Shown here one piece after another: positions 17,558 to 58,669 of a stretch of 64,000 bases of DNA (position 1 is its first letter; the number at the start of each line of letters is the position of its first letter). The position numbers were made by a program, and so were the translations under genes. Below the pieces are notes generated by a model. The model was not told the origin of the DNA and searched no databases. It saw only the letters and a program-made list of their open reading frames with translations. Source of the stretch: Okamejei kenojei (taxonomy: Eukaryota); assembly GCA_035221665.1 (NCBI GenBank), contig CM069148.1, forward strand, positions 10,540,001 through 10,604,000, written 5' to 3'.

Positions 17558-18848
17558 GGACGTGGCGTCGAGGGACGAGAAGCCGGAGCAAAGAAGTGGA
17601 AGCCAAATAACCGAACGGAAACGAAGCCGAAACTCCAAATAATCTAAAGCGTACAAAGCCGAAACGCCAACTAACCGAAAGGGTGGGACGCCTAAAAGCA
17701 AACTCACCGAAAGACCGCTCTGCCGAAATGCCAACTCACCGAAAGGCTGCGTTGGCAGCGCCGGGTGGAGCAGAGGTGAAAGACCAGCACCTACCAACAA
17801 TGAAGGCACTATGAAACCAGCTGCCGCAAGCCCTTCCTACAGGACGGGGTCAGCATTAAAACTCAAAAAAGAGCTACTAGTTTTTACATTCAGGAATCTG
17901 GTTAATTAAGTGGGGGAATGGATAGTGTGGGCGGCGATGGTGATGCCGCCCAGGGGTGGAGGGTGGGGATAGCGGGAGCGATACAGCACGAGGGGGGGGG
18001 ATAGTGGGGGTGGACGTGGCAATGCCGCCCGGTGGAGGGGGGAACAGCATGGGCGATGCCGCCCAGCAGCGGAGCGCCGCACTCACCCACTGCGAACTCT
18101 TTACCGACTCGATCTGCCGTTGGCGTTGCTGCTGCAAGTTGGTCAGAGGCGGCAGGTGACCGCCGCCACCACCGCTCTTTGACAGCGGGAATATCCAGCT
18201 CATTGCTGGAGATGTTTCGGGGGCGACCCTGGCTCAGCCGGCCATCTGGGGGTCCGACTACTGGCAGCAATCAGTCGACTATTGCCATCATCCGACCGAC
18301 ACAGCTTGTCACAGTACAGCCGCACGGGGGAGACGCAGCGGAGGGTGGCCATTGGCCGTGGGAGAGTGGGGGCTGTCCCGAGGGATGCGCTCCTTCAGCC
18401 GCTTACAACTTGGTGCTCGGGTTCAGAATGCCCAGTCACCTATGGCTTGTGTGGGAAAATGACCTCCACCCTCCCGTCTCAATCGGCCAATGATGTGATG
18501 GATGCGGACAAGTCCCACCCCCCCCCGGCGACGTCATGTCTGTTATTTGCCTTTTCGGCAGAGCGGCCATTTGGTGAGTTGGCTTGTAGGTGACGCAGCC
18601 TTTCGGTGAGTTGGTGTTTCGGCAGAGAGGTCTTTCAGTGAGTTTGCTTTTAGGCGTCCCACCCTTTCGGTTAGTTGGCGTTCCGGCTCGTACGCTGTTG
18701 GTTAGTTGGCGTTCCGGCTCGTACACTGTCGGTTAGTTGGCGTTCCGGCTCGTACGCTGTCGGTTAGTTGGCGTTCCGGCTTAGTTTCCATTCGGTTATT
18801 TGGCTTCCACTTCTTTGCTTCGGCTTATCGTCCTTCAACGCCACGTCC
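17558..18848. mobile_element. Foldback-like non-autonomous DNA transposon with long modular inverted repeats
   Basis: 17558-17752 is the reverse complement of 18593-18848 (GGACGTGGCG...CGCCACGTCC). The arms are built of CCGAA-containing subrepeats and enclose a CpG-rich noncoding core. No TSD identified. Confidence 0.8.
18667..18781 (+). repeat. 31-bp tandem repeat (~3.7 copies) in the right arm of the foldback element
   Basis: TCGGTTAGTTGGCGTTCCGGCTCGTACGCTG starts at 18667, 18698, 18729 and 18760. Confidence 0.92.
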
Positions 18849-21800
18849 GCACACGGGTTTTATACTGAGTTAATATTGAAGATTATGGATTTTTAGAGTT
18901 TTGGTTGCTTCTATTAGATTTCTTTGATTCCATGTCATTGTTTTGTCTTGTTACCCTTTAGTGATGCAATTTGTAGAACTTTCCTGTGTTACATAAATGT
19001 AACTTGTTGTTCAACCTGATTCTGGTTAAATATATGAGCTTTACTTATTTAGCAGAGCAGGTTCTCTTCGGGATTTGACAATGGTAATGATGGAAATGTT
19101 ATAGACATGTAAACATCCAATAGGGTGTGATTAAAAACATAGAAAATAGGTGCAGGAGGAGGCCATTTAGTCCTTGTAGCCTGCACCGCCATTCATTGTG
19201 ATCGTGGTTGATCATCCACAAGGCAGTGCCTGCCTTCTCCCCATATCGCTTGATTCAGCGAGCCCCTAGAGCTCTATCTAACTATGGATCTGGATTATAG
19301 ATCTGGAGAATATCTGTACATTTTCCTCATAAATTGCTTCTGTCATTCTCCCTATTTAGTGGTTATTCTGCATCATGGTTTTTTAAACAATGGCTAACTA
19401 TTAAAAAGTAAACTACGTTACCAATTTTGGCACCACATTACTAACAGGGAATATAGATGAATGGTTTAAATTTTTGTTTGTTGCACAGCATATACTGTGT
19501 TATCACATTTTAATTTTCTAATAGCTAGATTCCTGGTACAAAGCTTGTAACTTGATTAATGGAGGTAAAGAAAACGGCTTGATCTTAAAATTCTTGAAAA
19601 CTGTCATATTGGTAGTCCATTATACAAATTAATTTAACCGTATTTCTTTATCTGGAAATTTGGAGGAGTGCTCAGATCTGGTTCATTTCCAATTATTGCA
19701 GATCTGTTTAATAGAATTACTTACTCCACATTTAGTGAATCACCACAAAAATATTTTAAGCATTTACCCTTGAACACATCTTAATACAAACCGAACTTTT
19801 ACTTCCATTGTATAGTTAGAATTCTGTTTACTTTCTAAAAGGTCTTTGTCACTCTATTAAGATTTATCCTGAAATTCAGTCGAAGAAACATGGAATTTGA
19901 TAGTAATTTAAACACCTTGTCTTGCCTAATTTTATTCTCAAACTAGAAATGTTAAAGCTGTTTCATTTTATGCCTGCTTGTCTGTCATAAAAGTTGGATA
20001 AACAGGAATTTACTCCAACTAAATATCGGTAAGATAAAAGCCATTGTCTTCAGTTCTCATCATTAATTCCTTTGCCAAGGAATCAATTTTGTCACATTTT
20101 CTGGTTGTTTGAAACTAAACTAATATGTTGAAACCCTTGTCATTTATATTGTACACCTAAAATGTGAACTTAAAAATACATACTTACATTGTCTCTCAGA
20201 ATACCTATTTTTACTTCTGTCACACTGTGTGACTTTTCCCTTTCTCAGTCCATTTGCTGAGTAAGTCCTCATATGTCTTTGTTACCCTTAGGTGACTTTT
20301 CCAGTGCATTCCTGGCAAGTTGTCCTGATTTGTTTTGGTTGTTTAGTTTTAGAGAAACAGCATAGAAACATGCCATTTGTCCCAATGATCACTTGTTCAC
20401 ACAAATTTTATGTAATCTCACTTTCTCATCCATTCCTACACATTTTGAAGTCTGATTAATCATTTTGAAGTTTTGACTGAAGTCTGAAGGGTCTGACCCA
20501 AAACATTGCCTATCCATGTCCTCCAAAGATGCTGTCTGACCACTGAGTTACTCCAGCACTTGGTGAATTAAGTTGTTATTCAGGCACCAATTTAGTTACC
20601 CCCCTGCAATTTCTATCAGCTAAATCAAGTTTTAAAAAAAAGCCTATTTATATGACAAAAATACATGGTGAATATTGGCAAGAACCTATTGCCATGTAGA
20701 GTCTTGCCATTTGGGATTTCAACAAGTTGAGACAGCAGTGTTGACATTGATAGATGTGGAAGAGGCAAGTCCCTACTCAGCCCTTGGGTCAGTGCTTGAG
20801 GGGAGTTATGTCCCAATAAATTTTGAACAAAATCCAAGAACGGAACAAAATAAGTTTATCATTCAATGTCCTGAAACGGGTACATTACACGTTGTCTAAG
20901 AATAAAACAACTTTGGCATGGGCCACGGACTTTGAAAAATGAAACCAGCTTAAGAATTATAATTGCACGTAATCTCGTTCAGTTGTGTGCCAATATAGGA
21001 GAAATAGAAGTAAGTTGGTATGTTGGATAGAAGATTTATACATGGAACTGAGGAATTCTGTTGGAATACTATCAGATCGTGTAGTAGATATGAATCATTG
21101 ATTTTTGAATTAAACCATACACAGAGAGAAACCGTGACAGCAGTTTACATGAGTAGACCCATTTGTCCAAATACACTGAGAAGAATTTTGCAAATGCTGG
21201 CTATCTGTAATCAATTTATACTTTGTTTTAAAGTCATTTGAGAAAGTTTAAAATTGGTCAGATATTTAGATTTCTATTTCCAACCAAAGCGTAACATTTG
21301 TTTAATTGATTGGTTGAGAAGATGAGGATGAATTATAAAATACATAATTTTAATACAAAAGGCAGGCTTTTTATACAATTGTTATCATAATTTAAAAAAA
21401 TGTGAAATTGTTCATGTCATTGTACAAATATGCTCGGTGGGCAGACCTAAAATATGGTAACATTATATAGATTTTCCTGCTAAATAATGGCTGAAATTAA
21501 TCAACAGAGAAGCCATGCAAAAATTATAATGCCTATGGTATTAATTAAACTTTTCACTTGAAAGACACGCAGTTTTCATTCAACTTTTAATTTTTTTCTG
21601 CTCACGGTATATTAGATTAGTCCAAAGTCTATCTCTTATAACTCAGCTCAGCATTTTATATTGCTTAGCCAAGCACATTAGAAGTTGCTCACTGAAACAG
21701 CAAGTTATAGCAGATGTGTTTATTATACCTATTACTGACATTGGTTTTATGAAAAGGCCATCATTTTTCCCTCTATGTACTCCTCCAGGTTTCCATGAGC

Positions 21801-27119: not shown

Positions 27120-28667
27120 TTAAAAACAGCAATGAATTTTCACCAGACATTGCTAAGCAAGCTGCAGAAATGCCAGGGCAGGCGACTGATAATGGGGCCA
27201 TTTTGGTGAATGAAAAAGAGTGCATCAGTCTATCGATTGTGGACGGTAATATTGAAGGGCCCAAAGTCATTCAAGAAGGTAAAACAGGAAGCATTTTCAA
27301 TGAAACGGAATGTGCAAGTACAGAACTCGAGTCGCAGTACAGTTCTATCTGTTTGGCAGAGGTCCCAGTGGAAGGAGGAAAGATGCTCTCAGACAGTGCT
27401 GATGCATTGGGTGTCTGCAGTGCAGATGTGGGTCAGCAGACAGACTCCATCGCACATAAATTCGATGGAGGCAAAAATGATACAAATGATAAGACTGAAA
27501 CCACACAGTGTGACAAAGGTGTCTTTATAAATGAACCACCCAGGACTGAAGCCAGAGCAGCTTTTAGCAGTGATGAGATTTTGACAAAGGAAGTCAGTGC
27601 AAATGAAATAAGATTAGATATAAACCAAGCTCAGCACCATACTGTTTCTGATTTTGACTCTCAATCAGTAATTAAAAATGAGCAGAGCACCATTTTACAG
27701 CAGCAGCAGCAAGGATGCCACAGCCAAGCAATCATTATTATGGAAGAAAACTGTGTTAACAATGATACAATCAGACTTTCCCCATTGCTTAATCCTTGCA
27801 GTAAGTCGGAGGGCAGTTTCACAAAGTTACCCACTGACCAGCCCGATCAAAGCATTCCATCTGAAAACTGTAAAGATAACACTAATGTTGAACCTGACAG
27901 TAAAATAGACATTTCAAGTGGAATTTCTAGCGACAAAGGGGCAGATATTACCAAGGAAGTTGGTAGTAATTCAGAGAACAATTTTGCTAATGCCAACGGT
28001 CAGCAGACAGAAACAAATGATACGGAAGTTCTTATTTCTGACAGAAAAACAGCTGGATGTGTGGATATAATTGAGCCTGTTGCTGGAGCCTTGAGAAATC
28101 TTGAATATCTACAAGGCAATGTGGCCCAAAAGAAAGACTGTGTGAACGATAACCACTCATTAAACTCCACACGCAATATTGATCATGGTGTGGTTGTAAC
28201 CCCAAACTCCCAGGTTATGGAGGAAGTTCACAACAGTGCAACTGTTTCTGCAGTCACAGTGGAAAGTGGGCAAGGAGCAATTAGTAAAATAGGTTTATGC
28301 ACTGAAATACGAGAAGTGGGAGTCTACTCCAAGACAACAGAAAATGAATTGAAATCCATCTTTATAAATACTGCATTCAATCCAATTACAACCAGGAGTG
28401 AAGATCACAGACATGAAACTACAACTTCTGAGGTAGATGCTGCAAGCAGCAAAACAACAGCAAGTCACTATTACTGGAAATCTCATAGTCTGCCATCTCT
28501 GGCCTCCAGCAAAGGAAAGGATGTATCGAACAAAGCCACAATGTCACTCCCATTCTCATTGCACAGAGACAAATTGGAGGCTCCTGCCACAATCAGAAAG
28601 GCCCCTTTAATATTCACTTTTGCAAAATCCATCAGTGAAATGAATCTGACAAAGCCAAGTGTAGCAG
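27120..28667 (+). CDS. CCDC73: CCDC73 large coding exon (low-complexity, likely disordered region)
   Basis: taacag|TT...GCAG|gtaatg, 1548 bp, phase 1-1, inside ORF 27044..28729. Human CCDC73 also has one very large exon at this position. Confidence 0.88.
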
Positions 28668-29080
28668 GTAATGTTTGCTTTCTTTTTTTATGTGATCCTA
28701 ACATAGCAAATGGATGGAGTAGCAGTTAGAATTTAAACTGTTATGTAATGTACCCTTGAGAGATGCATCAGTCAATTCTAATGTAATTGGAAGTAGTGGT
28801 CTACTTAATATGTGGCAAGGCTTAATTTCTTAATTACTGAACCATCTAACCTCAAGCAATGTTATTTTATAATGTATTATTTTCCCATAATGAGCTATAC
28901 ATCATCACTGACTCTGATTAGTAAAGGAAAGTTATCTAATGGTAAGTGGTTGTGTGGGTTCATCATAATGGCAGCAGCATTGAAGGTTCTATTATTTGCT
29001 CTGACATTAAGAAAAGGGATGCGATAAAAATGTTTATACCTAGCCACATTATATTTGATATGTGTAAGTGACTGCAAATT

Positions 29081-29360
29081 GGGCGGCACAGAGGTGGGGC
29101 TAGATGAGCTCCTGTCTCACATACATGGGTTCAATCCTGACTCGAGTGCTGTCTGTGTGGAGTTTATACGTTCCCCTGTGATCATGTGAGTTTCCTCCAG
29201 TATCCTCCCACAACACAAAGACATGCAGGTTTGTTGGTTAATTGGCCTCTGTAAATTGTCCCTAGTGTATGGGGAGTGAATACGTAAGTGAGGTAATATA
29301 AAACTAGTGTGAAAGGGTGATCATTAGTTGGCGTAGACTTGGTGGGCCAAATGTCCATGT
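29081..29360 (+). mobile_element. HE1-type V-SINE
   Basis: GGGCGGCACAG head, GGGTTCAATCC B-box-like motif, V-domain, and CR1-like tail. Confidence 0.8.
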
Positions 29361-29740
29361 ATTTTTCAATCTATCAAGCAGTGTACTATTTGAGATTTTG
29401 TTTTTGACATGAGGGTATCTGCTTGGTAACAGTCCAGACGTCAGTTACATATAGTGTAGATTTTTCAGCTTGCTTGCTGGTGGCAGATTGTACAACACTG
29501 GATTCTAACAATGCTGTACACCACTATTCACTGTTTACTGACATTGCTGATTAAGATGAGGAAGTTTGACACTTTGTGTCTACCCTTTTATGAAAATTCA
29601 TACTCAGTTGGTTCACCAATGCAACCTCTTGGCCACATGTGACCAGTCCAGCTCTACAGGTGATTCTTAACCCCCTCAGAGCTTTTGCAGGTTGACAATA
29701 AGTGGTGCCGCCACACCCTAGAATAGATAAATATAACAAG

Positions 29741-30575
29741 GATCAGATCAGATCAGATCAGATAGAATTTATTGTCATTCAAACATTAAAGTTCAAATGA
29801 AATTACGTTCATGCAGTCATAACAACAAAAACCAAAACACACAATGAACACAATTCCACACAAACATCCATCACAGTGAATCTCCAAACACCTCCTCACT
29901 GTGATGGAAGGCAAAGGTCTTATCTCTTCCCTGTTCTCTGCTATTTATTCTTCTTCTCCCGCAGTCAAGCAGTCAAACTGCTGCATCAAGCTGATCGAGG
30001 CTTTTGATGTTAGAGCTTCCGGCGGGCGATGGTAAGTTCCGTGGCTGTTAAAGCCGCACTGGGCAATGTAAATCCCTGCTCCGGGGCAATTTAAATCCCT
30101 CGATTCGGGCGGGAGAAGTTGCCGTTGCGGGAGCTCCGAAAAGAGGTCTCCCACCAGGGACCTGCAAGCTCCCGATGTTACCGTCCACCGGGCCTGCAGC
30201 CAGAGCCTGCGAAGCTCCGAAGTCGGGTCACAGCCGTGCGCCATCACAGCGCTCCATGCTCCGAAGTCGACCAGCTCCGAAACTGGAGCTCTGCAACTGG
30301 AACTGGCTCTGCAACTGGAGTCCCAGGTCGATTCCGGTTGGAGCCGCCGGCTCCACGATGTTAGGCCCAACGACACTGGAGACTCGACAGGGAAAAGGTC
30401 AAGTCCCTGTACAGGGAAGAGATTAAAATGTTTCCCCCATTCCCCCCCTCCCCCCACATATACACAGCTAAAAATGAAATAAAACAAAACCAAAAAACAT
30501 AGACCTAACAGGACAAAAAGAAAGAAAAAACAGACGGACTGCAGTGGCCGCTGTCGCAAGGCGCCGCCATTTTAT
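29741..30575 (-). mobile_element. GC-rich non-autonomous retroelement (copy A) with (TGATC)n tail
   Basis: The - strand starts AAAATGGCGGCGCC, then a T-rich tract, CpG-rich body, conserved hairpin, AATAAA and microsatellite tail. Architecture shared with copies at 47830 and 59526. Confidence 0.7.
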
Positions 30576-31332
30576 GTGGCTAGGATCTACTTTATTCAGT
30601 AATGCCCAGGATCAATGACACTTAAAGCACACTCCATTCGGAGGATGTCAATGTTAATGCAACATAAGTCCCAGATATAACTACAACTTTCTAAAAATTA
30701 TATATTCTGTTTGAAACAACTCATCTAAGAAGGAGGAAATGCAATTTCATAGTTCTATGTCTTATCATCACTTAAAAATAATCTGTAAAGTTAATTGTGA
30801 TAACACAAAGAAGCAGGTAGCCACAGATTTAGAGGAGTCCCCCAACAACATTAATAGCCTTTGGTATTTGTTCAGCAAAAGTAGTCTCATCCAGTCTGTG
30901 CAGAGGTCTCCCTAGTGGAACATAGAACAGTACAGCACAAAAACAATCCCTTTCAGCCCACAATGTCTGTGCCGAACATAATATTAAAACCCATCTCTAT
31001 TCTACCTGCGTATAATCCATATCCTATGCAAAAGCTTCTTAAATTCCACTATCGTATCTGCCTCAACCACCAACTCTTTTTTTTAAATTTCAAAATAGAC
31101 TTTATTCAAATGATAAATATATACAATACATGAACCTTGCGGAAAATCCATCCGACATTTTCGGAGGCTATACAAATTGATCAATACAGTTTATACATTT
31201 ATTTTCCCCAAATTTCACAAATGTGTCCCCCACCCGTGCCACCCATGTGGCCCATTGGCATGGGATACCTTCCCTTATTTTGAGGGGCGTCTCCACCATA
31301 CCGTGCTCCCCATGTCCAGCAGCGGAAGGGCC

Positions 31333-34300
31333 CTAGACTGTGGTCCTCCCCCACCGAGCCTTGGCGTTGGCTGCACCGAGCTACAGTGCGTCCCTCAGCA
31401 TGTACTCCTGCAGTCTGCAGCGGGCCAGTCGGCAACATTCCCTGACGGACATCTCGCTCTGCTGGGTGGTGAACATCGCTCGGGCAGACCAAAGAGCATC
31501 TTTCACCAAGTTGATGACCCTCCAGCAGCACTCGATGTCTGTCTCTGAATGTGTCCCTGGGAACAGTCCGTAAATCACAGAGTCCTCTATGACGGAGCTG
31601 TTCGGGATAAAGTGTACCAGGGACCCTTGCATTTTTCTCCAGACTCTTTTAACAAATCCACACTCTGCAAAGAGGTGGGAAACCTGTCTCCTCTCCATAG
31701 CAGCCGTCCCGAGGGCAGCGTGCGCTGGCAGTGAGGTTCCGACGGTGCAGGAAGGATCTGACTGGGAGGGCTCCCCTCACCGCCAGCCAAGCCAGGTCTT
31801 GGTGCTTGTTGGTGAGTTCTGGCGATGAGGCATTTTGCCAGACAAGCTGGGCAGTCTGCTCAGGGAACCACGCCACCGGGTCCATCGAGTCCTTTCCCTG
31901 CAGTGCCTGCAGCACATTCTGTGCTGACCACTGCCCAATGGACGTGTGATCAAAGGTGTTGGTCCGGAAGAACCTTTCCACAGTCGACAAATGAGGCGGC
32001 AATGTCCAGCTGACTGGCACATTGCGTGGCATCTGCGCCAGGCCCATCGCAACACCGGGGGCAGGTAGAACCTCAGCAGGTAGTGACACTTGGTGCCCAC
32101 GTGCCTTGGCTCTACATTCCGCCTGATGCAGCCACACACAAAGGTGGCCATCAGAATGAGGGCGACGTTGGGCACGCTTTTATCCCCGTTGTCTGCTGAC
32201 TTGTACATTGTGGCCCTTCGCACCTGGTCTATCGTCAATCCCCAGATTAACTGGAAGACGGCCCGGGTGATCGCTGTGGCGTAGGAGGGAGGAACAGACC
32301 ACACTTGTGCCAAGTACAGCAGCCCCGAGAGCACCTCACACCTGATGACCAAATTATTTCCCGTCTTGGAGAGGGAGCGTTGCCTCCACAGCTCCAGCTT
32401 CCTCCCCACCCTGGCTATCCGCTCCAGCCAATTCTTGTTATACGCCTCAGCCCCCCCGAACCAGATCCCCAGCACCTTAAAGAAGTCAGGCTTGATGGTG
32501 AAGGGGACAGAAGATCTGTCGGGCCAGTTGCCAAAGAGCATGGCCTCGCTCTTCCTGCGGTTCAACCTGGCTCCCGTGGCCGACTCAATCTGGTCGCAGA
32601 TACTAATCAGTCTGCGGACCGACCCTGGATCCGAGCAGAAGACAGCGACATCGTCCATGTACAGGGAGGTTTTTACTTGAATGCCCCTACTGCCAGGCAA
32701 TGTCATTCCACTTATGCTCGCATCCTTCCTGATGGATTCGGCAAAGGGTTCAATACAGCAGACAAACAAGACAGGAGAGAGAGGGCAACCCTGCCTGACT
32801 CCAGACCTTACAGGGAAACTGCCTGATTCCCACCCATTGATTTGGACTGCACTACGGATGTTGGTGAAGAGCAGTTTGATCCAATTCCTGATTCCCTCCC
32901 CAAAACCCATTTTGGAGAGCACGTCCCTCATGTATGTGTGCAAAATCCTGTTGAAGGCCTTCTCCTGGTCCAAGCTGACTAGGCAGGCATCCATCCGTCT
33001 GTCCTACACATAGGCGATGGTATCTCTCAGCAGCGCTAGGCTGTCTGAGATTTTCCTGCCAGGTACAGCACAGGTTTGGTCCGGGTGGATCACTTGTCCC
33101 AGAGCAGACTTGACCCGGTTGGTGATGGCCTTAGACAGGATCTGGTAGTCTACATTCAAGAGTGTTATGGGTCTCCAATTCTTTATGTCCTTCATCTCCC
33201 CCTTCTGCTTGTAGATTAGGGTGATGTTGCCCTTCCTCATGGAGTCTGACATCCTGCCAGCTCGAAGCATGTCATTGTACACTTCTAGCAGGTCCGGGCC
33301 CATCCAGTCCCACAGAGCCGAATATAACTCAGCCGGTAAGCCATTGCTTCCGGGAGTTTTACTCGAGTCAAAGGAACGGATGGAGCCAGTCAGCTCCTCT
33401 AGGATCAGTGGTTGGTCCAGAGTCTCCCGCTTGTTGTCCTCCAAGACCTCCGTGATCGAGGACAGGAAGTTCTGGGAGGAGGTACTGTCTGTGGCCTTTT
33501 GGTCATACAAATCTGTGTAAAAGGATTTGCAGATCCTCAGCATGTCTGTCTGTGAGGATGCTACCGAGCTGTCCTCCTCCCTAAGGCTGTTCATCACAGA
33601 GCTCCCCCTGTGAACCTTATGGAAGAAGAAACGTGAGCACGTCTCATCCTGCTCCACATGGCGGACCCTGGATCAGAAAATGATCTTGGAGGATTCCGAG
33701 GTAAAGAGCCGAGCTTGCCGGTCCTTCACCTCTCTAAGTTCCTCCCTCACATCCACCCCTCTCGACTGCAGAAGGAGCAGTTGTTGCAAATCTGTCTGGA
33801 GTTGGCACAATTCCCTCTGACTCTGTCTTGCTCTCTGAACCCCTTTAATTATGAAGAACCTCTTAATGTTCTTGGTTGCTTCCCACCAGAGTGTCAGGGA
33901 GTCAAAGAGGGGCCTCACCGTTCACCAACATGCGTAGTCCCTCTTTAGCTCCTCAACGTTCTCTGGGGTCAACAGCTTCATGTTTAACTTCCACGTCCCT
34001 CTGCCTGCCTTCCGGTCCTCCTGTAGGTGACAGGAAGCCTGAAGGAGGCAGTGGTCGGAGAAGAACACCGGCGTGACGTCAGTGTGTCTCACCGTGACGG
34101 CCTTCGTCGTGAAGACGAAGTCTATCCGAGATCGGGCTAAACCGTCCGATCTCGACCAGGTGAACCGCGGCTGGGACCCGCCTGCAGGGTCGCTGAAGGC
34201 GTCGCGCAGCTTTGCGTCTTTTACCATCTCCATCAGGAACTTGGACGTGCTGTCCAGTCTGTTGTCGGCACTGCCGGATCGTCCAGCCGCATCAATGATG

Positions 34301-34734
34301 CAGTTGAAGTCACCGGCCAGAATGAGCTGCCGGGACGTGGCCAGCAGCACTGGAAGCTGCTGGAGAACGGCCAGCCGCTCGCTCTGCGTGGGTGAGGCAT
34401 ACACATTTATCAGCCGGAGCGGAGAGCCACGGTACATAACATCCACCACGAGGAGACGCCCTCCAACCACTTCCCTGACCTCAGTGATGGCGAAGTTCCC
34501 TCCCCGCAGCAAGATCCCCAGGCCGGAAGCATGACAGTCATTGCCCCCCGACCACACCGACAGTCCGTGGGGCCACCATCGCGACCACCTCCGGTAGCAG
34601 CGGAGGTGTGGCAACCAGCACTCCTGAAGAAAGGTTACATCTGCCTTGACCTTGGCCAGGTACTGTAAGGCATTTACACATCGCGCAGTGCTCTTTATAC
34701 TGCGCACGTTTAAAGATGCCAGTTTGAGCTCCAT
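31333..34734 (-). pseudogene. Tx1 ORF2: APE endonuclease + reverse transcriptase + C-terminal zinc-finger region, with frameshifts and stops
   Basis: APE motifs SLNVRS, FLQE, INVYAS, AGDFN, SRIDF, FSDH. RT motifs WRPITLLNVDY, LDQEKAF, GVRQGCPLSP, LYMDD. C-terminal CPR..C...HLFAEC. Confidence 0.95.
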
Positions 34735-34745
34735 TGTCTTTAGAG

Positions 34746-36304
34746 TCACTGAGCATTTCCGTGTCCCCTCATTCCCACCGCTTCGGTGAATTGCCTCAGC
34801 TTTCCTGGGCTCAGGAATCCAGCGCCGGCATCCTCGATGAGGTAGGTTTCAGGTGGCGTAACCAAAGGTGTCGTTGGGGGGGGCCTTCTTGTTCCACCCC
34901 CTTTTGGCCGCGCCGCTTCCTCCGTCTCCTGTAGCTGGGTCACGGTGGCTGGTTCACTGCTCCCAGAAACCCGGAGCTGGGGCCCAATGGCCTCGGCGCT
35001 GCTCCTGGTCGCCCGGAGCTGGGGCCCATTGGCCGTTGCAATGCTCCCGGTCGCCCGGAGCTGGGGCCCATTGGCCGCTGTGATGATCCCAGTCTCCAGG
35101 GGCTGGAGCCCATTGGCCGCTGTGATGATCCCAGTCTCCAGGGGCTGGAGCCGCTCGACTGCTGCACTGTTCCCGATGTCCTGGGGCTGGAGCCCCTCAG
35201 CCGCTTCTCTGCTCTCGGTCTCCTGGGGCTGGGAGATGATCGTCGTGGCCTCTCTCTTTTCCTACCCCGTTTTCTTCCTCTGCCTCCATCGTTGGGACTT
35301 CCCGGTCACCTCATCCTCCGACGAGGAGAGGTTGCTGCCTTCTGCAAGAGAAAGAGACCTTTTTTGGGGGTTTACTTTTGGACTTACCAGTCCTTTCCGG
35401 CCTCGGCTCTTTGGGCTGACCCCTCTGGTGCTTCTTGTACTTCACCGTTGTCCATTTCTCCTGCTGTTCCCCCTCTTCCATTGACTCTCCCTCCTGGGCA
35501 GGATGCTGGGGTCTCCTTCTGGCACTTGGGGCCTCAAGGTGGTTGGGGTGTCCTCATCCGTGTTCCCTCTTTCTGCTGGGGTCTTGGCAGTGGTGGGGGG
35601 TGTTGGGGGTGCTGGCAGCAGCCCCTCTTGTCGCCTGTGCGTAGGTGCAGGCCCTGTAAAGGTGGCCTGCCTCTCCGCACAGGTTGCAGTTCTTGCTGGC
35701 CTGACAGTCCTTTGTCTCATGGCCCTCCGTCTTGCAGTTTTTGCAGACAACTGCAGTGCATTGGGCCATCACGTGCCCAGGCTTGTTGCATTTCATGCAC
35801 AGCCTGGGTTGCCCCACGTAGCTCAGGTATCCTCGGTTTCCCCCGATCGCGAAAACCGAGGGAGGGTGGATGATTTCTCCATCCTTGTCCACCCTCAGCT
35901 TTACCTTGACTTGCCGCTTGCTCGTCCAAATCCCATGCAGGTCCTTCACGTCCACACAGTTCCCTGTTCCCTCGACGTAGCGAGCAAGGAAGGTGAGGTC
36001 ATCCACTACGGGCACATGTGGGTTCAGCAGCGACAGCGGAGCTTCATTCCCCCTCTCCCGGACGTCTTCCATCACCTTCTGCCATCGATGTTACCGTCGG
36101 ATACTTGAAGGTAACATCAAACTATCCGTTACCCGGGAACTCCTGGAGGCAGTAGATGTCCTTGACCACAAATTTTCAGGCCTCTAGCAAGACCTTCTTC
36201 ACGAACAGGTCTCGTGAGAAGGGGGTCCCCTTGCTGAGGTCCTTGACGCTTATTCTCAGGGTATTCCGAATACCCTATACTCCTGCTCCTGTTGCTGCTG
36301 ACAT
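34746..36304 (-). pseudogene. Tx1 ORF1: ZCCHC3-like RRM + three CCHC zinc knuckles, disrupted
   Basis: gccacaATG at 36304. IRNTLRI...DIYCLQEFPG..FDVTF, then CMKCNKPGHVMAQC, CKNCKTEGHETKDC, CNLCGEAGHLYRAC. Stop at 34746-48, 11 nt before the ORF2 ATG. Contains in-frame stops and frameshifts. Confidence 0.9.
34970..35232. repeat. 42-bp (14-codon) degenerate tandem repeat inside Tx1 ORF1
   Basis: ~6 units, e.g. CCCGGAGCTGGGGCCCATTGGCCGTTGCAATGCTCCCGGTCG. Visible as a 14-aa periodicity in the ORF track. Confidence 0.88.
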
Positions 36305-36468
36305 TGTGGCTGAATAAGGTGTTAGGTTGGTTACCAGCATGGATCCACCTCTAAGGCTGCAGCCGACCGACTCCTTGTCAACGATTTTGCTCCGCAATCC
36401 ACGCCCTTGTCCCCAAGGGACCGCCAGACTTGTTATAATAAGAACAGATAGCCTCTTTTACTCAAATA

Positions 36469-36518
36469 CTCATCCTGGTGAGAACCGCCTTGGTGATCAA
36501 AGTCTGCCAGGTAAGTAT
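36469..36518 (-). other. U1 snRNA-derived 5' head of the Tx1 element
   Basis: The - strand reads ATACTTACCTGGCAG-actt-TGATCACCAAGGCGGTTCTCACCAGGATGAG. Vertebrate U1 reads ATACTTACCTGGCAG-GGGAGATACCA-TGATCACGAAGGTGGTTTTCCCAGGGCGAG. The first 15 nt are identical and start at U1 +1. Confidence 0.88.
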
Positions 36519-37955
36519 ATGACCACCTCAACCACCAACACTGGCAGGGTGATCTAGGCATACAGCAGGCTTTGTGTAAAATAAAACCTGCTCCACACAT
36601 CTCCTTTAATCTTTGCCCCTGTCACCTTAAAGCTATATGCAATAATAATTTGATTTTTCCACCCTGAGGTTCTTACCTGATCACCTGGCCTAGCCTATTC
36701 TATCACCTGGAGTGTCACCTGGTCTGTTCTGCCCTCCTCACTAAAACGCAAAATTATGGCATTGTCTAAAGAGAGGCCCCACCCCGATATGTTGCCTATC
36801 AATTCCCTCCACGGATGCTGCCTGGTCCATTGAGTTACTCCAGCACCTTGTGTTTTGCTGAAGATTCCAACATCTGCAGTACCTTGTATCCACTCTCCAG
36901 CCTATTCATTGTTCCTTTTCTCTTTCAACTTTTTTTACAGTGGTTAGTCAGCTTCAGTGTTGATTCATAACTTATACCAGATCTTACCACACTCTTTTTG
37001 AAGTTTTTCCTTCTAACTTCCGCTTGAATTACATATGAATTGTCTATCTATTTCTTCACTCTGCTTTCAGAAGGCAGGAACGGGGTACTGAATGTGGATG
37101 ATCAGCCATCATCACAGTGAATGGCGGTGCTGACTTGAAGGGCCGAATGGCCTACTCTTGCACCTATTGTCTATTGAATCTTGACTGTCATGAGCAATAC
37201 TAAGGAAAATTGTGTGTGTGTGGGTGTGTTAGTGGGTACACCCTCATACCAGTGAGCAAAACTCAGTTAAAATTGGTATAACTTATCGTGTTGCCTGCAT
37301 CTTCGGAATCGAAGCTACCTTGCTCCCACCTATCCACTATTCTCTTCTATATCTTTTATGTTGAAGCCATCAGCCAACTTTAGGAACATGTATGTCTCCT
37401 CTACTGGCTCCCTCCCAAAGTCTGAAATGTATTGGTCATACGGGGCTTTCTATCACTAAACTTATCAAAAGTGATTTACTATCTCACATATTCAACTTAC
37501 CAGACCCAATATGACTCAATCCAGACACAGACATGAACTTTACAACGTGTATTTCTTGTTATTCCTGATAGGAAATCAAGTCAACAGAAGAAATAACAGA
37601 ATTTGCACATTTGAGGCCTAATAAAGTGGAGTTCCTGGCAAATTAATATTTGTTCTTCACTAGTAATTAACCACTAGTTAAACAGTATGTTATTTGTCAA
37701 GGGGAGATACATTTTAAATAAATATTTCAAATTATTTTTGCGTACTCTGTCAGTATAAGATCAAAGCTTGCATTAGAATAGGAAATTGTATCGTGAATGG
37801 ATGAACAGTGAAGCGTCTCTGATTAAAGTGGAATAGTCATAATTCTCAAGGTCAGATAGAAACTAGCAGTTCAGTGACTTCAAAATTAGCATCTGGGGAA
37901 TTTCAAAGTTTAGAGCATTGAGTGTAGTTGTAACCATTTCCTTTCTGTCACTCAG

Positions 37956-38089
37956 ATTCTCCCAGTACTAAAAGGGTGAATGACACTTTTAATACCTCCA
38001 GTGTTCCTCTTTACCCCAAGAGAATTTCCAAAGAAGATTGGAATGCAATAACACAGACGTTTTGTGATTTTTCACGGCCTCCAGAGCAG
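37956..38089 (+). CDS. CCDC73: CCDC73 penultimate coding exon
   Basis: ctcag|AT...CAG|gtaagt, 134 bp, phase 1-0. DSPSTKRVNDTFNTSSVPLYPKRISKEDWNAITQTFCDFSRPPEQ vs human [45 protein letters not shown]. Confidence 0.92.
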
Positions 38090-39718
38090 GTAAGTACATT
38101 TTAACACATAATTCTAAATGTTGGGTTAGCTAATTTGAGAGGAATGTGGAGTTTTATGGGCAAACAGACAATTTATGACACAGGTGGGTTTCAAAAATAC
38201 TGTGAAGGGCATTGGCATCGGTTTTACAATTAAGCCTGATGGAGAAATAGGCAGAGTGCATATGTCAACAAGACTGTAACTGGTTCCTTCACAAAGCTGA
38301 TTTCGCAAAGAGGGAAGTGTTGTATACAGTATATTCAGAACAAAGCTTCTTTTGTGAAGGCAAGAATAAATTTAAAAAGAGTTCAATACTCGCGAATTAT
38401 ACCTATACATTTTTACAGAACAATATGGAACTTACCGTTACATAATTAACTGAAAAAAATGTAACTAGATTATAGCCAGCTAGGAAATCAAGAGTTACCG
38501 AATTCATGCAGGGTAGTGGCATTAAGATAAAAGATCAGCCAAATGGGTTTCCCCTGTTTCTATTTCTTAAAGTCCAGTCACTATTCGTATTTGAGAGTAA
38601 TATTTGAATTAACTTTTTCTTCCAGCAAACCTGGAGCAGATGGGGGTTTTGCAAGTAGGTGTTGATCTAGGAAAGAATCAGCTTCTAATTAACCACAGGA
38701 CATTCAAATATACACCATTTGCTTTCTTGGTCTAACTGGAGGGAGGCACTTTACATTTCACCTCATCTTGGCTGTGGTATAGTACACCTTGTATTGAATA
38801 TTCCATTATAAATTGCCACCAAAAGTACATACGCTTTACCCCAACTATACCCAGCATCAGGAGAAAATTATGTTGGAGTATAAACAATTGCAAAATGCTG
38901 CCGTAAGGTAACGTAGAGCCCAGTTCACTGTGACAAGTGATTGCAGATAATAGTACAGTAAAGATACTACTTTAACTAGTGGGACATTTCTTTGAAAAAT
39001 GACCGTTACAGGATCAATGTCTGTAAAACTGGTAATTTGTGAACGATTAATACAATGTTTATGGACAGTTTATGCAAGATCTATGATAATGACCTGTACA
39101 CCCAATTGGAGCACACTTCTTCATTGGTATGATGTTGAGTCACAATTCAGATAAAAAATTTAGTCTAGCATGTATCAGCATCAAAATATTCAGGTTTACA
39201 CTGTTGATTTGGAAATTAACGATTAAAATGCTATCATATTCTGAATAATGACCCAGACATGTTTTGAGTGGAGATGAGAGATGCAAACTTGATAGCTTTG
39301 AGGATGTCAGCAGTCAACCAATCTTCCAGCGACATTGATTACCCAGGGTGGCATTCGTCAGTGATCACTAGGACTGTTTCAGGCATAATTAAGATCATTT
39401 AACAACTAGGAAATTTGAGGTGAATAAAGTGAAGGTTACAATGATTCTAAGAGTGTCACCTACTTGAGTGAGGAAATCAGGACAAGTACTGTTTAAAGTG
39501 ATTTCACTGAGTGTTGAGATTACTCGATTGCTCAATCAATGAGGAAAACTGCAATGCTAGTTGGCCGCCTGAATGTATCAATATAGTTATTGATGTTAAA
39601 GTTAACCCGCATGTAAGTACCGCACATTGAATTAAAGTGTTTATGTCAATTTCATGGAAATAGGCTTCTGAACTGTATTCATTTAGCAATGATATAGTTT
39701 AACACCCTTAATTATGCT

Positions 39719-40112: not shown

Positions 40113-40307
40113 CTAATTATTCATATTAATTATAAGGAATGTTTGCTATGAATAATTCAGTCTGAAGGATGTAACATACTTGTTTTCAGTTGCACAACTT
40201 GTGTTCACGTTGAATCATACCTGCTTCCATGCATCTATAATTGTATGTTTCTTTATTTTGTTAAATTTTTCTCTGCGCCGGCCTCATTGCATTGCGATCT
40301 CTATATA

Positions 40308-41919
40308 CAGTGGCTTGCAAAAGTATTCATACCCGTTGAACTTTTCCACATTTTGTCACGTTACAACCACAAACGTAAATGTATTTTATTGGGATTTTAT
40401 GTGATAGACCAACACAAAGTGGTGCATTATTGTGAAGTGGAAGGAAAATGATACATGGTTTTCAAATTCTTTTACAAATAAAAAACTGAAAAGTGTGGCA
40501 TGCAAAAGTATTCAGCCCCCTTTACTCTGATACCCCGAAATAAAATCCAGTGCAACCAATTGCCTTCAGAAGTCACCTAATTAGTAAATAGAGTCCACTT
40601 GTGTGTAATCTAATCGCAGTATAAATACAGCTGTACTGTGAAGGCCTCAGAGGTTTGTTAGAGAACATTAGTGAACATCAGCATCATAAAGCCGAAGGAA
40701 CACACCAGACAGGTTAGGGATAAAGTTGTGGAGAAGTTTAAAGCAGGGTTAGGTTATAAAAAAATATCCCAAGCTTTGAACATCTCACGGAGCACTGTTC
40801 AATCCATCATCCGAAAATGGATAGAGTATGGTACAACTGCAAACCTACCAAGACATGGCCATCCACCTAAACTGACAGGCCGGGCAAGGAGCGCATTGAT
40901 CAGAGAAGCAGCCAGAGGCCCGTGGTAACTGGAGGAGCTGCAGAGATCCACAGCTCAGGTGGAAGAATCTGTCCATAGGACAACTATTAGTCGTGCACTC
41001 CACAAATCGGGCCTTTATGGAAGAGTGGCAAGAAGAAAGCCATTGTTGAAACAAAGCCATAAGAAGTCCCGTTTGCAGTTTGCCACAAGCCATGTGGGGG
41101 ACCCAGCAAACATGTGGAGGAAGGTGCTCTGGTCTGATGAGACCAAAATTGAAGTTTTTGGCCTAAATGCAAAATGCTATGTGTGGCGGAAAACTAACAC
41201 TGCACATCACCCTGAACACACCATCCCCACTGTGAAACATGGTGGTGGCAGCATCATGCTGCGGGGATGCTTTTCTTCAGCAGGGACAGGGAAGCTGGTC
41301 AGAGTTGATGGGAAGATGGATGGAGCCAAATACAGGGCAATCTTGGAAGAAAACCTGTTAGAGTCTGCAAAAGACTTGAGACTGGGGCGGAGGTTCACCT
41401 TCCAGCAGGACAACGATCTAAACATACAGCCAGAGCTACAATGGAATGGTTTAGATCAAAGCATATTCATGTGTTGGAATGGCCCAGTCAAAGTCCAGAC
41501 CTAAATCCAATTGAGAATCTCTGGCAAGACTTGAAAATTGCTGTTCACAGACGCTCTCCATCCAATCTGACTGAGCTTGAGCTATTTTTCAAAGAAGAAT
41601 GGGCAAAAATTTCAGTCTCTAGATGTGCAAAGCTGGTAGAGACATACCCCAAAAGACTTGCAGCTGTAATTGCAGCGAAAGGTGGTTCTACAAAGTATTA
41701 ACTCAGGGGGGCTGAATACTCTTGCACGCCACACTTTTCAGTTTTTTATTTGTAATAAAATTTGGAAACCATGTATCATTTTCCTTCCACTTCACAATTA
41801 TGCACCACTTTGTGTTGGTCTATCACATACAATCCCAATAAAATACATTTACATTTGTGGTTGTAACGTGACAAAATGTGGAAAAGTTCAAGGGGTATGA
41901 ATACTTTTGCAAGCCACTG
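40308..41919 (+). mobile_element. Tc1-family (DD34E) DNA transposon, full-length, IR/DR-type TIRs
   Basis: TA TSD (40306-07, 41920-21). ~213-bp TIRs CAGTGGCTTGCAAAAGTATTCA... (40308-40520, 41707-41919), each carrying inner and outer TGCAAAAGTATTCA-like direct repeats. Confidence 0.97.
40686..41701 (+). pseudogene. Tc1 transposase, frameshifted (start codon ATA, two frameshifts)
   Basis: Paired-like HTH GYKKISQALNISRSTVQSII, ARRKPLL, WSDETK, FQQDND and [11 protein letters not shown] are split across ORFs 40671, 40959 and 41441. Confidence 0.95.
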
Positions 41920-43194
41920 TACATACACACCGTGCAGACCATTTTGTACTCATTAATCTGTAAAGATGAAAACAAATATACTGCACTTGCTCTAAATCTA
42001 AAATAAAAACAAATGCTGGAAGCATTTTCCATTTGTGAAAAGCAAAGATTTTATGTAACATGTCACTGACCTTACATCATAACTGGGAGAAGATTGAAAT
42101 TTAGTTTGAAATGCTTCTGACCTGCTGATTATTTCAGAATTTTCTACTTTTTAACACTTAAGGTTGGTTTGCTTTAAATTTGCCAGTTACTGTAGATTGT
42201 GGTATCATTTTGGCAGCTGAGTTATTTGAGTGATTAGTCTGCCCTTTTCCATGTGGCTGCTGTAATATTATCATTAACATGCAAATGGACACCGCTGCAA
42301 CACGGCACAGCCAGATTAAATGACATTGGAGGATGTTTTTCTGCTGGTTTATTGAGTACACAAAGACATAACGTGAAACATAACCAAACTATTGCAGATT
42401 ATTGTTCCTTTTAAATGCTAGAACATGCTACTGTGTTGATTCGTTTGATAAAGGCCTTCCATCCCTGCAACACATTACATAATTTATTATTAACCTATTT
42501 TCCCCCTTATCCTCTCCTGTTTAAATACTAACTCGCATATTGACGTATTGGCTGCCAAACTCAAATGTGTAACAATGGTACTTAAATATTAATTCCCCAT
42601 CTCCTTTGTCTCCCTTTTTACCTTGTACATAATGAGATTTAAATCTAGTCATCGGTAATGTTTTACTGTCAGTCTGTGGTATTGCATTTGTTTTGAGATG
42701 TCTGCCCAGAGTTTTTCTGTTCACAATGTTTATTTATTATTCTCTGTTATCATCAGAGAGTTCTTATTATTTCCTTTTAAATCAGCATTGGCCACTTTGT
42801 CTCTCCATGGAAGTGCCTCCTACACTTTCATAAAAATTCTGAATGTTTTACTATCTGTTTATAACCAGGGCCTTAGGAGACTGCATGCTTTATTAATTCA
42901 CTTCCGTGGTAATTCAATATGGGTCTCACCTAGGTTAAAATAATAAAATCAGATCTTTGTACAAAACCTGTTGTGAGAATGTGGCTTTAATCTCAATTTC
43001 GTTTTTTACATCCACAGAATCTTACAGTACACTCAGGCTTTTGTTTCTATGCCAATTGTCTTTAAAAATCATGCAATAATTCACACTTGACTGCTTTATT
43101 TATCATCTCCCACTTTATAGCTTTGTCAACTATTTGAGATGTGTTTTCAGATTAGACTGATATCGAAGTAGAAGGCATCTCCCTTGCATCCATG

Positions 43195-57250: not shown

Positions 57251-58669
57251 CATGCTACGTGCTCTTGAAGGATAGATATTTTGTGAAATGCACTTATAAT
57301 TTAAGTTAAAAGTGAGCAAAGGGTGGACATACTCAGCAAATCCAGACATCATCCACAGTGTGAGAAAGGAATTAACATTTCATGTTGATCACTTCGGAGA
57401 GTTAAGACTAATTTAATTCTCTCATTGCAGCTTTTAACATTTGACTGAGAAACATTATTTTGTGATGGGCTTTCTCCTCTTATGCAATACTTATGAATTT
57501 TGTATTAAAACGTTTTTTTCAAAACGCTTGCCCAAAATTGGTTAAGAAAAGGGCTGATTTAGAATGCCAAAATTTAGAGCCAAGAAAGTGGTTTATAAAA
57601 TCAGTTTTATACAGCTTTTCATTCACATTATTTTGGATACTATTTTAACAGATATAAATGATTGAGAGAATTAAGACATTGGAATATCAAGGTGCTAATT
57701 ATATTGCTAGTAATTTCTAGTTTAATTTAAAATAGCTCAAATAATCAAGGCAGGATTCATGACAATAATCTCAGAATTTGGCATACAATTCAATTATAAA
57801 ATGTCAAAACTCTTGCTTAAATTAGATTCACTTTTATGTGACCTTGATAGCCTCGAACCTCCAGCAGTCTGCATGAACAGAACAGCCAATCCAACTGACA
57901 GAAAAAAAAATGGACTGTTTTAGAAAAAGAAATTCAGCAACATGTGGGAATTGAATGAATGCCCAGTATGCATACTCACTTCAATGCTCCCTGGATTATG
58001 ACTAAAAGATCAAAAGAGGTTTTGGGATCCATCCAGTGCTTTCAATTTTATTTGACAGAGCATTGTGCTGAATGTTATTAAAGAGATTACAAGCTCAAAT
58101 ACAACACTGGCAATGTAACAGAAAATGCATTAATCTTACAAAATATACCTCTTTGATTACCACAATCAAGATTGTACCTTTCACTGTAAGATGACTAAAG
58201 GAAACAAAGAAAACAATAATGTCAAAGCTATGGATGGAGATACTTTCCTCAATGTTCTTAATAAGCTGCTGATCTTGCTATCTTTACCCTCTATTATTAA
58301 ATGTGAAAATTAAGACAGGCCAAGATCTTGCAAATGGCAGTCACGTGTTTATAGGCCAACATTGCTTGTCAGCACTATCAAACATAGAAACATAGAAATT
58401 AGGTGCAGGAGCAGGCCATTCGGCCCTTCGAGCCTGCACCGCCATTCAATATGATCATGGCTGATCATCCAACTCAGTATCCTGTACCTGCTTTCTCTCC
58501 ATACCCCGCTTTACATTGCTTTAAAAGATGCATTTTATGTTTGAGAGTTCTTTTTAATTTTATACTGCAGTTAATACACCAATTCGCTGCTAAACTATAA
58601 ACATTTTAGGGTTTTTATTTAAGAAAGCATAAGGCATTGTAATGTAACAAACCCACAATCACAACTTAC

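What the first reader, a model, noticed from the sequence alone, without database searches (positions are those of the whole stretch)
36418..36518. Antisense U1 head creates a perfect 5' splice site and a potential in-frame CCDC73 pseudo-exon
Seen: on the CCDC73 strand the U1 head reads CAG|GTAAGTAT (36508-18), the full complement of the U1 5' end, inside the phase-1 intron 28668-37955. A candidate acceptor (cccttgtccccaag|, ending 36417) lies upstream. The 93-nt segment 36418-36510 is phase 1-1 and stop-free, adding GTARLVIIRTDSLFYSNTHPGENRLGDQSLP. Inference: every antisense intronic full-length copy of this family would carry a maximal-strength donor or U1 snRNP binding site. This could cause exonisation or suppress premature polyadenylation. 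The AAG acceptor is weak.
Basis: partly seen in the sequence, partly recalled or inferred. Interest (0 to 1): 0.7.

Follow-up and report, generated by a model that had tools for sequence, protein, structure and literature searches.

The report
Dead U1-headed LINE in skate intron
A dead jumping gene that begins with a piece of the U1 splicing RNA sits backwards in an intron of a skate gene, which automatically spells a perfect splice-donor signal; such U1-headed elements are already known, and nothing here shows that the signal creates a new exon.

Summary
The sequence facts are right: a perfect U1-complementary donor at 36508-36518, an AAG at 36417, and a 93-nt in-frame, stop-free segment in a phase-1 intron of a skate CCDC73 gene. 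The donor is the antisense of the first 11 nt of a U1-derived head on a full-length, decayed L1/Tx1-type LINE (5.45 kb, 14-bp target duplication). U1- and U2-headed Tx1 families are already described in crocodilians (Kojima 2015). Exonisation is unshown. The AAG acceptor is U-poor, lacks a consensus branch point and lies in a -8.4 kcal/mol hairpin. A better acceptor at 36259 would give a 251-nt exon with a premature stop. In its favour, the donor is not masked, and a similar AAG acceptor elsewhere in this gene is used in related skates. The RNA test was inconclusive: only contigs were served, none shown to come from this species. No genome was held, so orientation bias and whether the U1 piece is family-wide are untested. 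Most likely a U1-binding but mostly skipped decoy donor, like the ATM ISPE.

The parts
27120..28667 (+). CCDC73 large coding exon; phase-1 donor at 28668
   Evidence: tblastn with skate CCDC73 proteins, 88-94% identity; acceptor position
31061..31074 (.). Target-site duplication at the 3' side of the LINE (14 bp exact)
31075..36525 (-). Full-length decayed L1/Tx1-type LINE, 5451 bp, 55.5% GC (window 39.6%); AATAAA about 31106-31101 and A8 tail 31084-31077
31336..34734 (-). ORF2 (endonuclease, reverse transcriptase, zf-RVT), broken by stops and frameshifts; first 613 aa are 93% identical to a Logan family member, with 3 stops
34746..36304 (-). ORF1 (RBD_ZCCHC3_2nd, CCHC knuckle, 42-bp tandem array at 34958-35232), broken by stops and frameshifts
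36257..36259 (+). Stronger candidate acceptor (CAG, 7 U in 16 nt); with donor 36511 it gives a 251-nt exon with a stop near 36352
36385..36466 (-). Probable U2 snRNA-derived part of the head (U2 nt about 16-120); 13-nt exact match at 36450-36438; stem IIb-like hairpin
   Evidence: 4-6 of 1000 shuffles; 15 of 2000; not detected by Rfam
36404..36419 (+). 6-bp hairpin (-8.4 kcal/mol), the antisense of the U2 stem IIb-like part, holding the candidate's pyrimidine tract and its AAG acceptor (36415-36417)
36418..36510 (+). Candidate 93-nt in-frame pseudo-exon; use not shown
36469..36518 (-). U1 snRNA-derived 5' part of the head (U1 nt 1-56, 7-nt deletion, degenerate stem-loop I)
36508..36518 (+). 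Perfect 11-nt complement of the U1 5' end; cryptic donor with GT at 36511
36519..36525 (-). 7 extra bases between the target duplication and U1 position 1, origin unexplained
36526..36539 (.). Target-site duplication at the 5' side; it brackets head and LINE as one insertion
37956..38089 (+). Next CCDC73 exon; near-perfect donor at 38090; internal alternative acceptors at 38020 (AAG) and 38022 (GAG)

Best explanation
A full-length L1/Tx1-type LINE, whose RNA began with a U1 snRNA fragment and probably a U2 fragment after it, was copied antisense into the CCDC73 intron by target-primed reverse transcription and has since decayed (shown: domains, tail, target duplication, broken ORFs; the copying mechanism is established knowledge). 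Because the U1 5' end is the molecule that reads donors, its antisense is a perfect donor as a by-product (shown). In the CCDC73 pre-mRNA the site probably binds U1 snRNP (inferred from -14.0 kcal/mol pairing and ordinary accessibility). It is probably skipped in nearly all transcripts, because no good exon-defining acceptor lies close upstream (inferred). The mRNA then joins 28667 to 37956, as in related species. Any leak is as likely to be a frameshifting 251-nt exon, removed by nonsense-mediated decay, as the in-frame 93-nt one (inferred).
For: Element anatomy. Acceptor 36417 is AAG, while 9 of 9 real acceptors of the gene in the window are YAG. It has 4 U in 16 nt (real 3-10, median 8) and no yUnAy within -50..-15 (6 of 9 real acceptors have one). 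It costs 9.5 kcal/mol to open (real 0.7-9.4). Of 578 AGs in the intron, 96 (matrix A) or 29 (matrix B) score as well or better. The acceptor at 36259 scores higher in both matrices and gives a premature stop. [quoted passage not shown] Retention of a perfect 11-mer needs no selection: 0.57 at 5% divergence (the 5% is, 24 of 535 and 23 of 436 bases). U1-headed Tx1 families are in print.
Against: The donor is not masked: opening costs 5.4-6.1 kcal/mol against 3.7-9.3 for the real donors tested. The candidate acceptor's rough scores (A 0.5, B 2.7) fall inside the range of the real ones. An AAG acceptor of like score at 38020 (A 0.3, B 2.1, opening 4.3) gives the C-terminus of the annotated L. erinacea isoform X4. 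The depth bins of runs X1 and X2 fit a contig starting at that site (my arithmetic). The 36259 acceptor is also costly to open (9.8). In the ATM study the ISPE's silence was tied to its lying only 12 nt from the cryptic acceptor, and spacing them out activated that acceptor; here the spacing is 93 nt. The splice matrices are rough and partly recalled.
Confidence: 0.68

Rival explanations
1. One reading: the 93-nt exon 36418-36510 is included at a meaningful level (5% or more) and adds 31 residues to CCDC73.
For: Perfect, accessible donor. Typical exon size, in frame and stop-free, so it would escape NMD. Acceptor score within the real range, and an AAG acceptor of similar score is used in this gene in a related skate.
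Against: AAG, U-poor tract, no consensus branch point, and tract plus AG inside a -8.4 kcal/mol hairpin. No joint 36510>37956 among the 15 joints shown, but 23 were hidden and the insertion was not shown to exist in those organisms, so this carries almost no weight. None of 30 CCDC73 proteins has the insert, but none is from this species.
Confidence: 0.12
2. The donor is used, but with the stronger acceptor at 36259 (or 36208, 36179). This makes a frameshifting poison exon that lowers CCDC73 output through nonsense-mediated decay. Both sites lie inside the element, so a full-length antisense copy would carry a ready-made poison exon.
For: 36259 is a CAG with 7 U in 16 nt and the best matrix-A score (5.4) of the 25 AGs in 36100-36511. 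Stop near 36352, two junctions upstream of the last exon. The listed indels of other family copies would leave it frameshifting (2 indel rows not shown).
Against: 251 nt is long for exon definition (own knowledge). Opening cost 9.8 and no yUnAy. No RNA evidence.
Confidence: 0.12
3. The CAG|GT at 36508-36512 is a recursive splice site: the 9.3-kb intron is removed in two steps and the mRNA is unchanged.
For: AG|GT motif with a perfect regenerated donor, and a yUnAy-type CTCAT at -39. Pseudo-exons and recursive sites are linked in PMC8819188 (passages).
Against: As an acceptor it scores low (A 0.5, B -1.1; 7 pyrimidines in 16 nt). Two other AGs lie between the branch motif and the site. Vertebrate recursive sites are mostly in much longer introns (own knowledge).
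Confidence: 0.04
4. The site matters as a U1 docking point that suppresses cleavage at the AATAAA at 36580, 37620 or 37717 (telescripting) and has been kept for that.
For: An AATAAA lies 69 nt downstream of the donor. U1 suppression of nearby polyadenylation signals is established (own knowledge; one search returned no paper).
Against: Those signals lie outside the element, so the gene tolerated them before the insertion (inference from the target duplication). AATAAA is common in this AT-rich intron (8 A[A/T]TAAA). No sign of selection on the 11-mer.
Confidence: 0.04

Closest known systems
Crocodilian Tx1-Mar LINEs with snRNA heads (Tx1-2_Crp, Tx1-2B_Crp, Tx1-4_AMi with U1; Tx1-11_Crp with U2), Kojima 2015, PMC4494074
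   Same: Autonomous APE-RT LINE whose 5' end is a U1-derived fragment (here).
   Different: Found in a skate. The head seems to hold both U1 and U2 pieces. No Mariner-N4 target seen. RT relationship to Tx1-Mar untested. The paper's text does not discuss splicing effects of antisense copies (parts 1-4 of 5 read).
SINEU-2 (crocodile, gharial), same paper
   Same: 5' U1 piece followed by a U2 piece, the order suggested here.
   Different: SINEU-2 is a short non-autonomous element; here the pieces head a 5.4-kb coding LINE. Whether the junctions match could not be seen: the figure and supplements are not held.
snRNA/L1 chimeric retrocopies made by template switching (Buzdin 2002, Garcia-Perez 2007, as cited in PMC4494074)
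   Same: snRNA sequence fused to the 5' end of a LINE inside one target duplication.
   Different: Those are one-off copies, usually on truncated L1. Here the LINE is full length, the U2-like part is shared with copies in other organisms, and the U1 part is 12% diverged with a 7-nt deletion, which leans towards an inherited head.
ATM intron 20 ISPE (PMC2790898)
   Same: Deep-intronic CAGGTAAGT, fully complementary to U1, which binds U1 snRNP without being used as a donor.
   Different: The ISPE lies 12 nt from a cryptic acceptor that it blocks; here the nearest plausible acceptor is 93 nt away. U1 binding is only predicted here.
Exonised antisense Alu elements (listed; mechanism from own knowledge)
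   Same: An antisense retroelement supplies splice signals inside an intron.
   Different: Alu supplies a strong pyrimidine tract and needs a donor; this element supplies a perfect donor and lacks a strong tract.

Membership tests
L1-group (L1/Tx1) non-LTR retrotransposon | ORF2 with APE endonuclease, reverse transcriptase and C-terminal zinc-binding domain | tested here: met
   PF03372, PF00078, PF13966; RT part closer to human L1 ORF2p (E 3e-29) than to R2 (E 2e-8)
L1-group (L1/Tx1) non-LTR retrotransposon | Poly(A) tail and 10-20-bp target-site duplication | tested here: met
   A8 tail, AATAAA, 14-bp duplication
Tx1 clade | ORF1 with RNA-binding domain and CCHC knuckles (feature recalled, not from a call) | tested here: met
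   PF23058 E 1.8e-20, PF00098 E 2.8e-7
Tx1 clade / Tx1-Mar group | RT phylogeny grouping with Tx1, Keno or Tx1-Mar | not testable with these tools
   No listed hit is named Tx1 or Keno (best 120 of 233; best 120 of 342); Repbase sequences are not held
Tx1-Mar group | [quoted passage not shown] | not testable with these tools
   One insertion only; no genome held
snRNA-headed Tx1 family | 5' end derived from U1 snRNA and inside the target duplication | tested here: met
   43 of 49 identities, 0 of 1000 shuffles; duplication outside the head
snRNA-headed Tx1 family | Head shared by many copies (a family trait, not a one-off template switch) | tested here: inconclusive
   Other copies cover the head up to about 36458 in X1 and across 36435 in X11; cover of 36459-36518 is not shown, and the tool may drop human-like contigs
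SINEU-2-like U1+U2 head | U2-derived segment after the U1 segment | tested here: inconclusive
   13-nt exact match and collinear alignment, 4-6 of 1000 and 15 of 2000 shuffles; U5 and U6 controls blank; but at least six other tiles of the window score higher against U2 and Rfam finds nothing
SINEU | Short (under about 500 bp), non-coding | tested here: not met
   5451 bp with two ORFs
Exonised transposon / pseudo-exon | Junction reads at both splice sites | tested here: inconclusive
   Contigs only, from organisms not shown to carry the insertion; 15 of 38 joints shown, none at 36510
Exonised transposon / pseudo-exon | Functional acceptor (YAG, U-rich tract, branch point, accessible) | tested here: inconclusive
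   AAG, 4 U in 16 nt, no yUnAy, in a hairpin; rough scores still within the real range
U1 snRNA gene | Full 164-nt U1 with stem-loops II-IV and Sm site | tested here: not met
   Rfam 9.2 bits against a gathering score of 69.5; similarity ends at U1 nt 56

The most novel reading that the evidence does not exclude
A still-coding LINE family of skates and rays carries a fixed U1+U2 head. Each full-length antisense intronic copy then delivers a complete splice cassette: a perfect donor plus two built-in acceptors, one in frame (93 nt) and one poison (251 nt). Such cassettes are spliced in at measurable levels and purged or oriented by selection genome-wide, a donor-first counterpart of Alu exonisation. 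On its own strand the head folds the U1 5' end away, so the element's RNA would not act as a stray U1.
Probability: 0.12. Interest if true: 0.65.

Novelty: new member of a known kind. Interest (0 to 1): 0.25.

Why it matters
As it stands, it extends U1/U2-headed Tx1-type LINEs from crocodilians to a cartilaginous fish. I found no paper for this group (searches; the library lacks subscription journals and Repbase Reports), but this scan's earlier notes report such heads in several other genomes. If the splice cassette is used, it would be a new route by which a transposon rewires host splicing. The family would also give many identical perfect donors in different contexts, a natural test of what makes a U1 site a donor, a decoy or a polyadenylation guard.

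Tried and rejected
Genome-wide copy number and orientation bias: no genome held. RNA test: 14 runs listed, none on record as RNA (no RNA holder listed), none above 0.68 of the words. I laid 4 of 14 on 35300-38300 only, so the upstream junction at 28667 was outside the stretch. The output was swamped by a common repeat at 37069-37176, and 23 of 38 joints and 888 loose ends were not shown. The missing cover of 36459-36511 in X1 (arithmetic) is no finding. Protein test: 0 of 30 CCDC73 proteins hit 36300-36600; 22 of 30 show the direct junction; of the other 8, two use alternative acceptors, three run into the intron, one has another C-terminus and two bony-fish proteins missed my pattern. None is from this species. 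My own idea that the donor is masked by a hairpin: rejected, opening cost is ordinary. My idea that the U1/U2 junction equals that of SINEU-2: dropped, the softer alignment starts U2 near nt 16 and the paper's figure is not held. Rfam at gathering score: nothing in the window; nothing at E up to 10 in 35500-37500 or 36370-36475. Metagenome scan for the U1 motif: 4 loci, all true U1 genes or parts, none heading a LINE. ORF1 relatives: 3 spurious 14-aa bacterial matches, none in viral contigs. Earlier scan notes by sequence and by place: none. Literature searches returned no paper; two listed none on antisense U1 heads as donors, judged by titles and abstract starts.

Full report
1. Observation. 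The motif CAG|GTAAGTAT is at 36508-36518 and is the only perfect copy on either strand of the window; about 0.02 are expected per strand by base composition. The AAG ends at 36417. The segment 36418-36510 is 93 nt, and joined in silico between 28667 and 37956 it keeps the frame and adds GTARLVIIRTDSLFYSNTHPGENRLGDQSLP. The host gene is CCDC73: the large exon finds 16 proteins, all with PF15818, and nine exons map from 7448 to 45494. The best named matches are 92-94% identical (Leucoraja erinacea, Amblyraja radiata). The window is therefore from a skate that is not one of the named species.

2. What the motif belongs to. It is the antisense of the first 11 bases of a retroelement on the minus strand, 36525 to 31075 (5451 bp, 55.5% GC against 39.6%). 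The element has a 14-bp target duplication (36526-36539 and 31061-31074), an AATAAA and an A8 tail. ORF1 has an RBD_ZCCHC3 domain and a CCHC knuckle; ORF2 has endonuclease, RT and zf-RVT domains. The RT is nearer human L1 ORF2p than R2. Both ORFs are broken (3 stops in the first 613 aa of ORF2 at 93% identity to a relative). An uninterrupted 1138-aa ORF2 of the same 90% cluster exists in an unnamed Logan record, and a member is annotated in L. erinacea. A more distant relative is in Mobula (72-83%). Laid contigs from other organisms show other copies about 5% away (24 differences in 535 bases, 23 in 436), and in run X11 summed depth is in the thousands against 24.5 on unique flank (the tool warns this is no copy number). 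The label Tx1 rests on the ORF1 layout, which I recall as typical; no RT tree was possible.

3. The head. Against a true U1 gene found in a metagenome (L002, 154 bits) the first 50 nt align with 43 identities in 49 positions, a 7-nt deletion and a 1-nt insertion; 0 of 1000 shuffles reach this. The similarity stops at U1 nt 56, so it is a fragment; Rfam gives only 9.2 bits. The next 80 nt or so resemble U2 nt about 16-120: a 13-nt exact match, a stem IIb-like hairpin and collinear order. The support is moderate: 4-6 of 1000 and 15 of 2000 shuffles reach the score, and U5 and U6 controls are blank. But at least six other tiles of the window score higher against U2, and Rfam sees nothing there. 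Other copies differ at 36435 in the direction of U2. The proposed pseudo-exon is thus antisense U2-like plus antisense U1. Whether the U1 piece is family-wide is open: other copies are seen only as far as about 36458, and missing cover is not evidence. Its 12% divergence plus deletion, against about 5% for the body, leans towards an inherited head, but the reference U1 is not from a skate.

4. Donor. Pairing with U1 is -14.0 kcal/mol; the gene's own donor at 38090 gives -13.5. Opening the cryptic donor costs 5.4-6.1 kcal/mol against 3.7-9.3 for the real donors tested (one of those seven positions was set one base off), so it is not masked. I had expected masking and reject it. Keeping 11 given bases at 5% divergence has probability 0.57, so the perfect match needs no selection.

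5. Acceptor. All 9 real acceptors in the window are YAG; the candidate is AAG. It has 4 U in 16 nt (real 3-10), no yUnAy within -50..-15 (6 of 9 real ones have one), and its tract and AG lie in a -8.4 kcal/mol hairpin with opening cost 9.5 (real 0.7-9.4). Two rough matrices, one learned from the nine real tracts and one with recalled frequencies, give 0.5 and 2.7, inside the real range; 96 or 29 of 578 intronic AGs score as well. The CAG at 36259 scores 5.4 and 3.1 and would give a 251-nt exon with a stop near 36352, though it is also costly to open (9.8). Against my reading: an AAG acceptor of like score at 38020, inside the next exon, yields the C-terminus of L. erinacea isoform X4, and the GAG two bases on yields that of Rhinoraja isoform X6. 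The depth ratio of two bins in runs X1 and X2 (0.93 to 7.43; 0.78 to 6.24) fits a contig covering 38019-38090, which starts at that site (my arithmetic). So weak AAG acceptors can be used in this gene; that one is easier to open (4.3).

6. RNA test. The run search listed 14 runs, all contigs, none on record as RNA, best share 0.68. Four were laid on 35300-38300. X1 and X2 cover part of the 37956 exon with no flanking intron, as spliced RNA would. None of the 15 joints shown involves 36510, but 23 were hidden, contigs drop rare forms, and nothing shows that these organisms carry the insertion. The test is inconclusive. None of 30 CCDC73 proteins has the insert, which says little for the same reason. 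No genome was held, so orientation bias was not tested.

7. How it most likely works. Shown: one retrotransposition event placed head and LINE antisense in the intron, and the copy has decayed. Inferred: U1 snRNP can bind the site, but exon definition mostly fails for want of a good nearby acceptor, and the mRNA joins 28667 to 37956 (0.68). The ATM ISPE is a tested precedent for a perfect, U1-bound, unused intronic donor. In that study, however, moving it away from a cryptic acceptor activated the acceptor (PMC2790898, passages), so context decides. Rivals at a level of 5% or more: the 93-nt exon (0.12), a poison exon from 36259 (0.12), a recursive site (0.04), a polyadenylation guard (0.04). 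Trace inclusion seen only in very deep data is more likely than any of these, perhaps 0.3 (judgement).

8. Known relatives. Kojima 2015 (PMC4494074; parts 1-4 of 5 read, which is the whole main text; figures not held, supplements unavailable) reports Tx1-Mar families with U1 heads (Tx1-2_Crp, Tx1-2B_Crp, Tx1-4_AMi) and a U2 head (Tx1-11_Crp). It also reports SINEU-2 with U1 then U2, and repeated 5' addition of U1 pieces by template switch. Its Figure 1B alignment and supplement may bear on whether the skate head matches. Of PMC4640811, PMC5786205 and PMC8819188 I saw passages only. Searches gave no report from sharks, skates or rays, judged from the listings; searches gave none on antisense U1 heads as donors. 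The library lacks subscription papers and Repbase Reports. Eight earlier notes of this scan describe snRNA-headed or snRNA-linked LINEs in other genomes; they are unchecked, but they suggest the layout is recurrent.

9. Verdict. The element is a new member of a known kind. The splice consequence is a fair, testable idea without evidence yet. Interest 0.25; the novel case has probability about 0.12 and would deserve about 0.65.

Noticed in passing
window 36466-36518 (- strand): On the element's own RNA the U1 5' end folds back on head nt 41-53: 96% paired and 10.5 kcal/mol to open, against 0.1 in full U1. With the tail shuffled, 26 of 500 (53 nt), 8 of 500 (60 nt) and 72 of 500 (100 nt) controls do as well. 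It may keep the head from acting as U1; weak, post hoc.
   Followed up: partly
window 38020 and 38022: Alternative AAG and GAG acceptors inside the 37956 exon give truncated CCDC73 ends that match annotated isoforms of L. erinacea (X4) and Rhinoraja (X6); bin depths of runs X1 and X2 fit a contig starting there.
   Followed up: partly
window 36519-36525: Seven bases between the target duplication and U1 position 1, origin unknown (untemplated, family 5' end or U1 gene flank).
   Followed up: no
window 17558-18848: GC-rich element with inverted ends of about 190 bp (81-87% alike) built from 31-32-bp tandem units and no Pfam hit in three inner ORFs; looks like a non-autonomous DNA transposon.
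   Followed up: partly
window 40302-41925: Tc1-type transposon with 219-bp inverted ends (95%) and a frameshifted transposase (HTH_Tnp_Tc3_2, DDE_3) in the last CCDC73 intron.
   Followed up: no
window 34958-35232: 42-bp tandem array inside ORF1 of the LINE, about 4.7 copies.
   Followed up: no
window 37069-37176: Very high-copy repeat end, shared with 600-727, 19132-19245 and 58380-58507; it dominated the laid contigs.
   Followed up: no
window 29945-30571 and 59676-60337: Stretches with overlapping long open frames and no Pfam hit, probably other repeats.
   Followed up: no
L002 81-2708 (also L001, L003): A compact repeat unit of about 2.5 kb that holds U1, U2, U5, U6 and a tRNA gene together in a metagenome contig; L004 has U1 beside 5S rRNA.
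   Followed up: no
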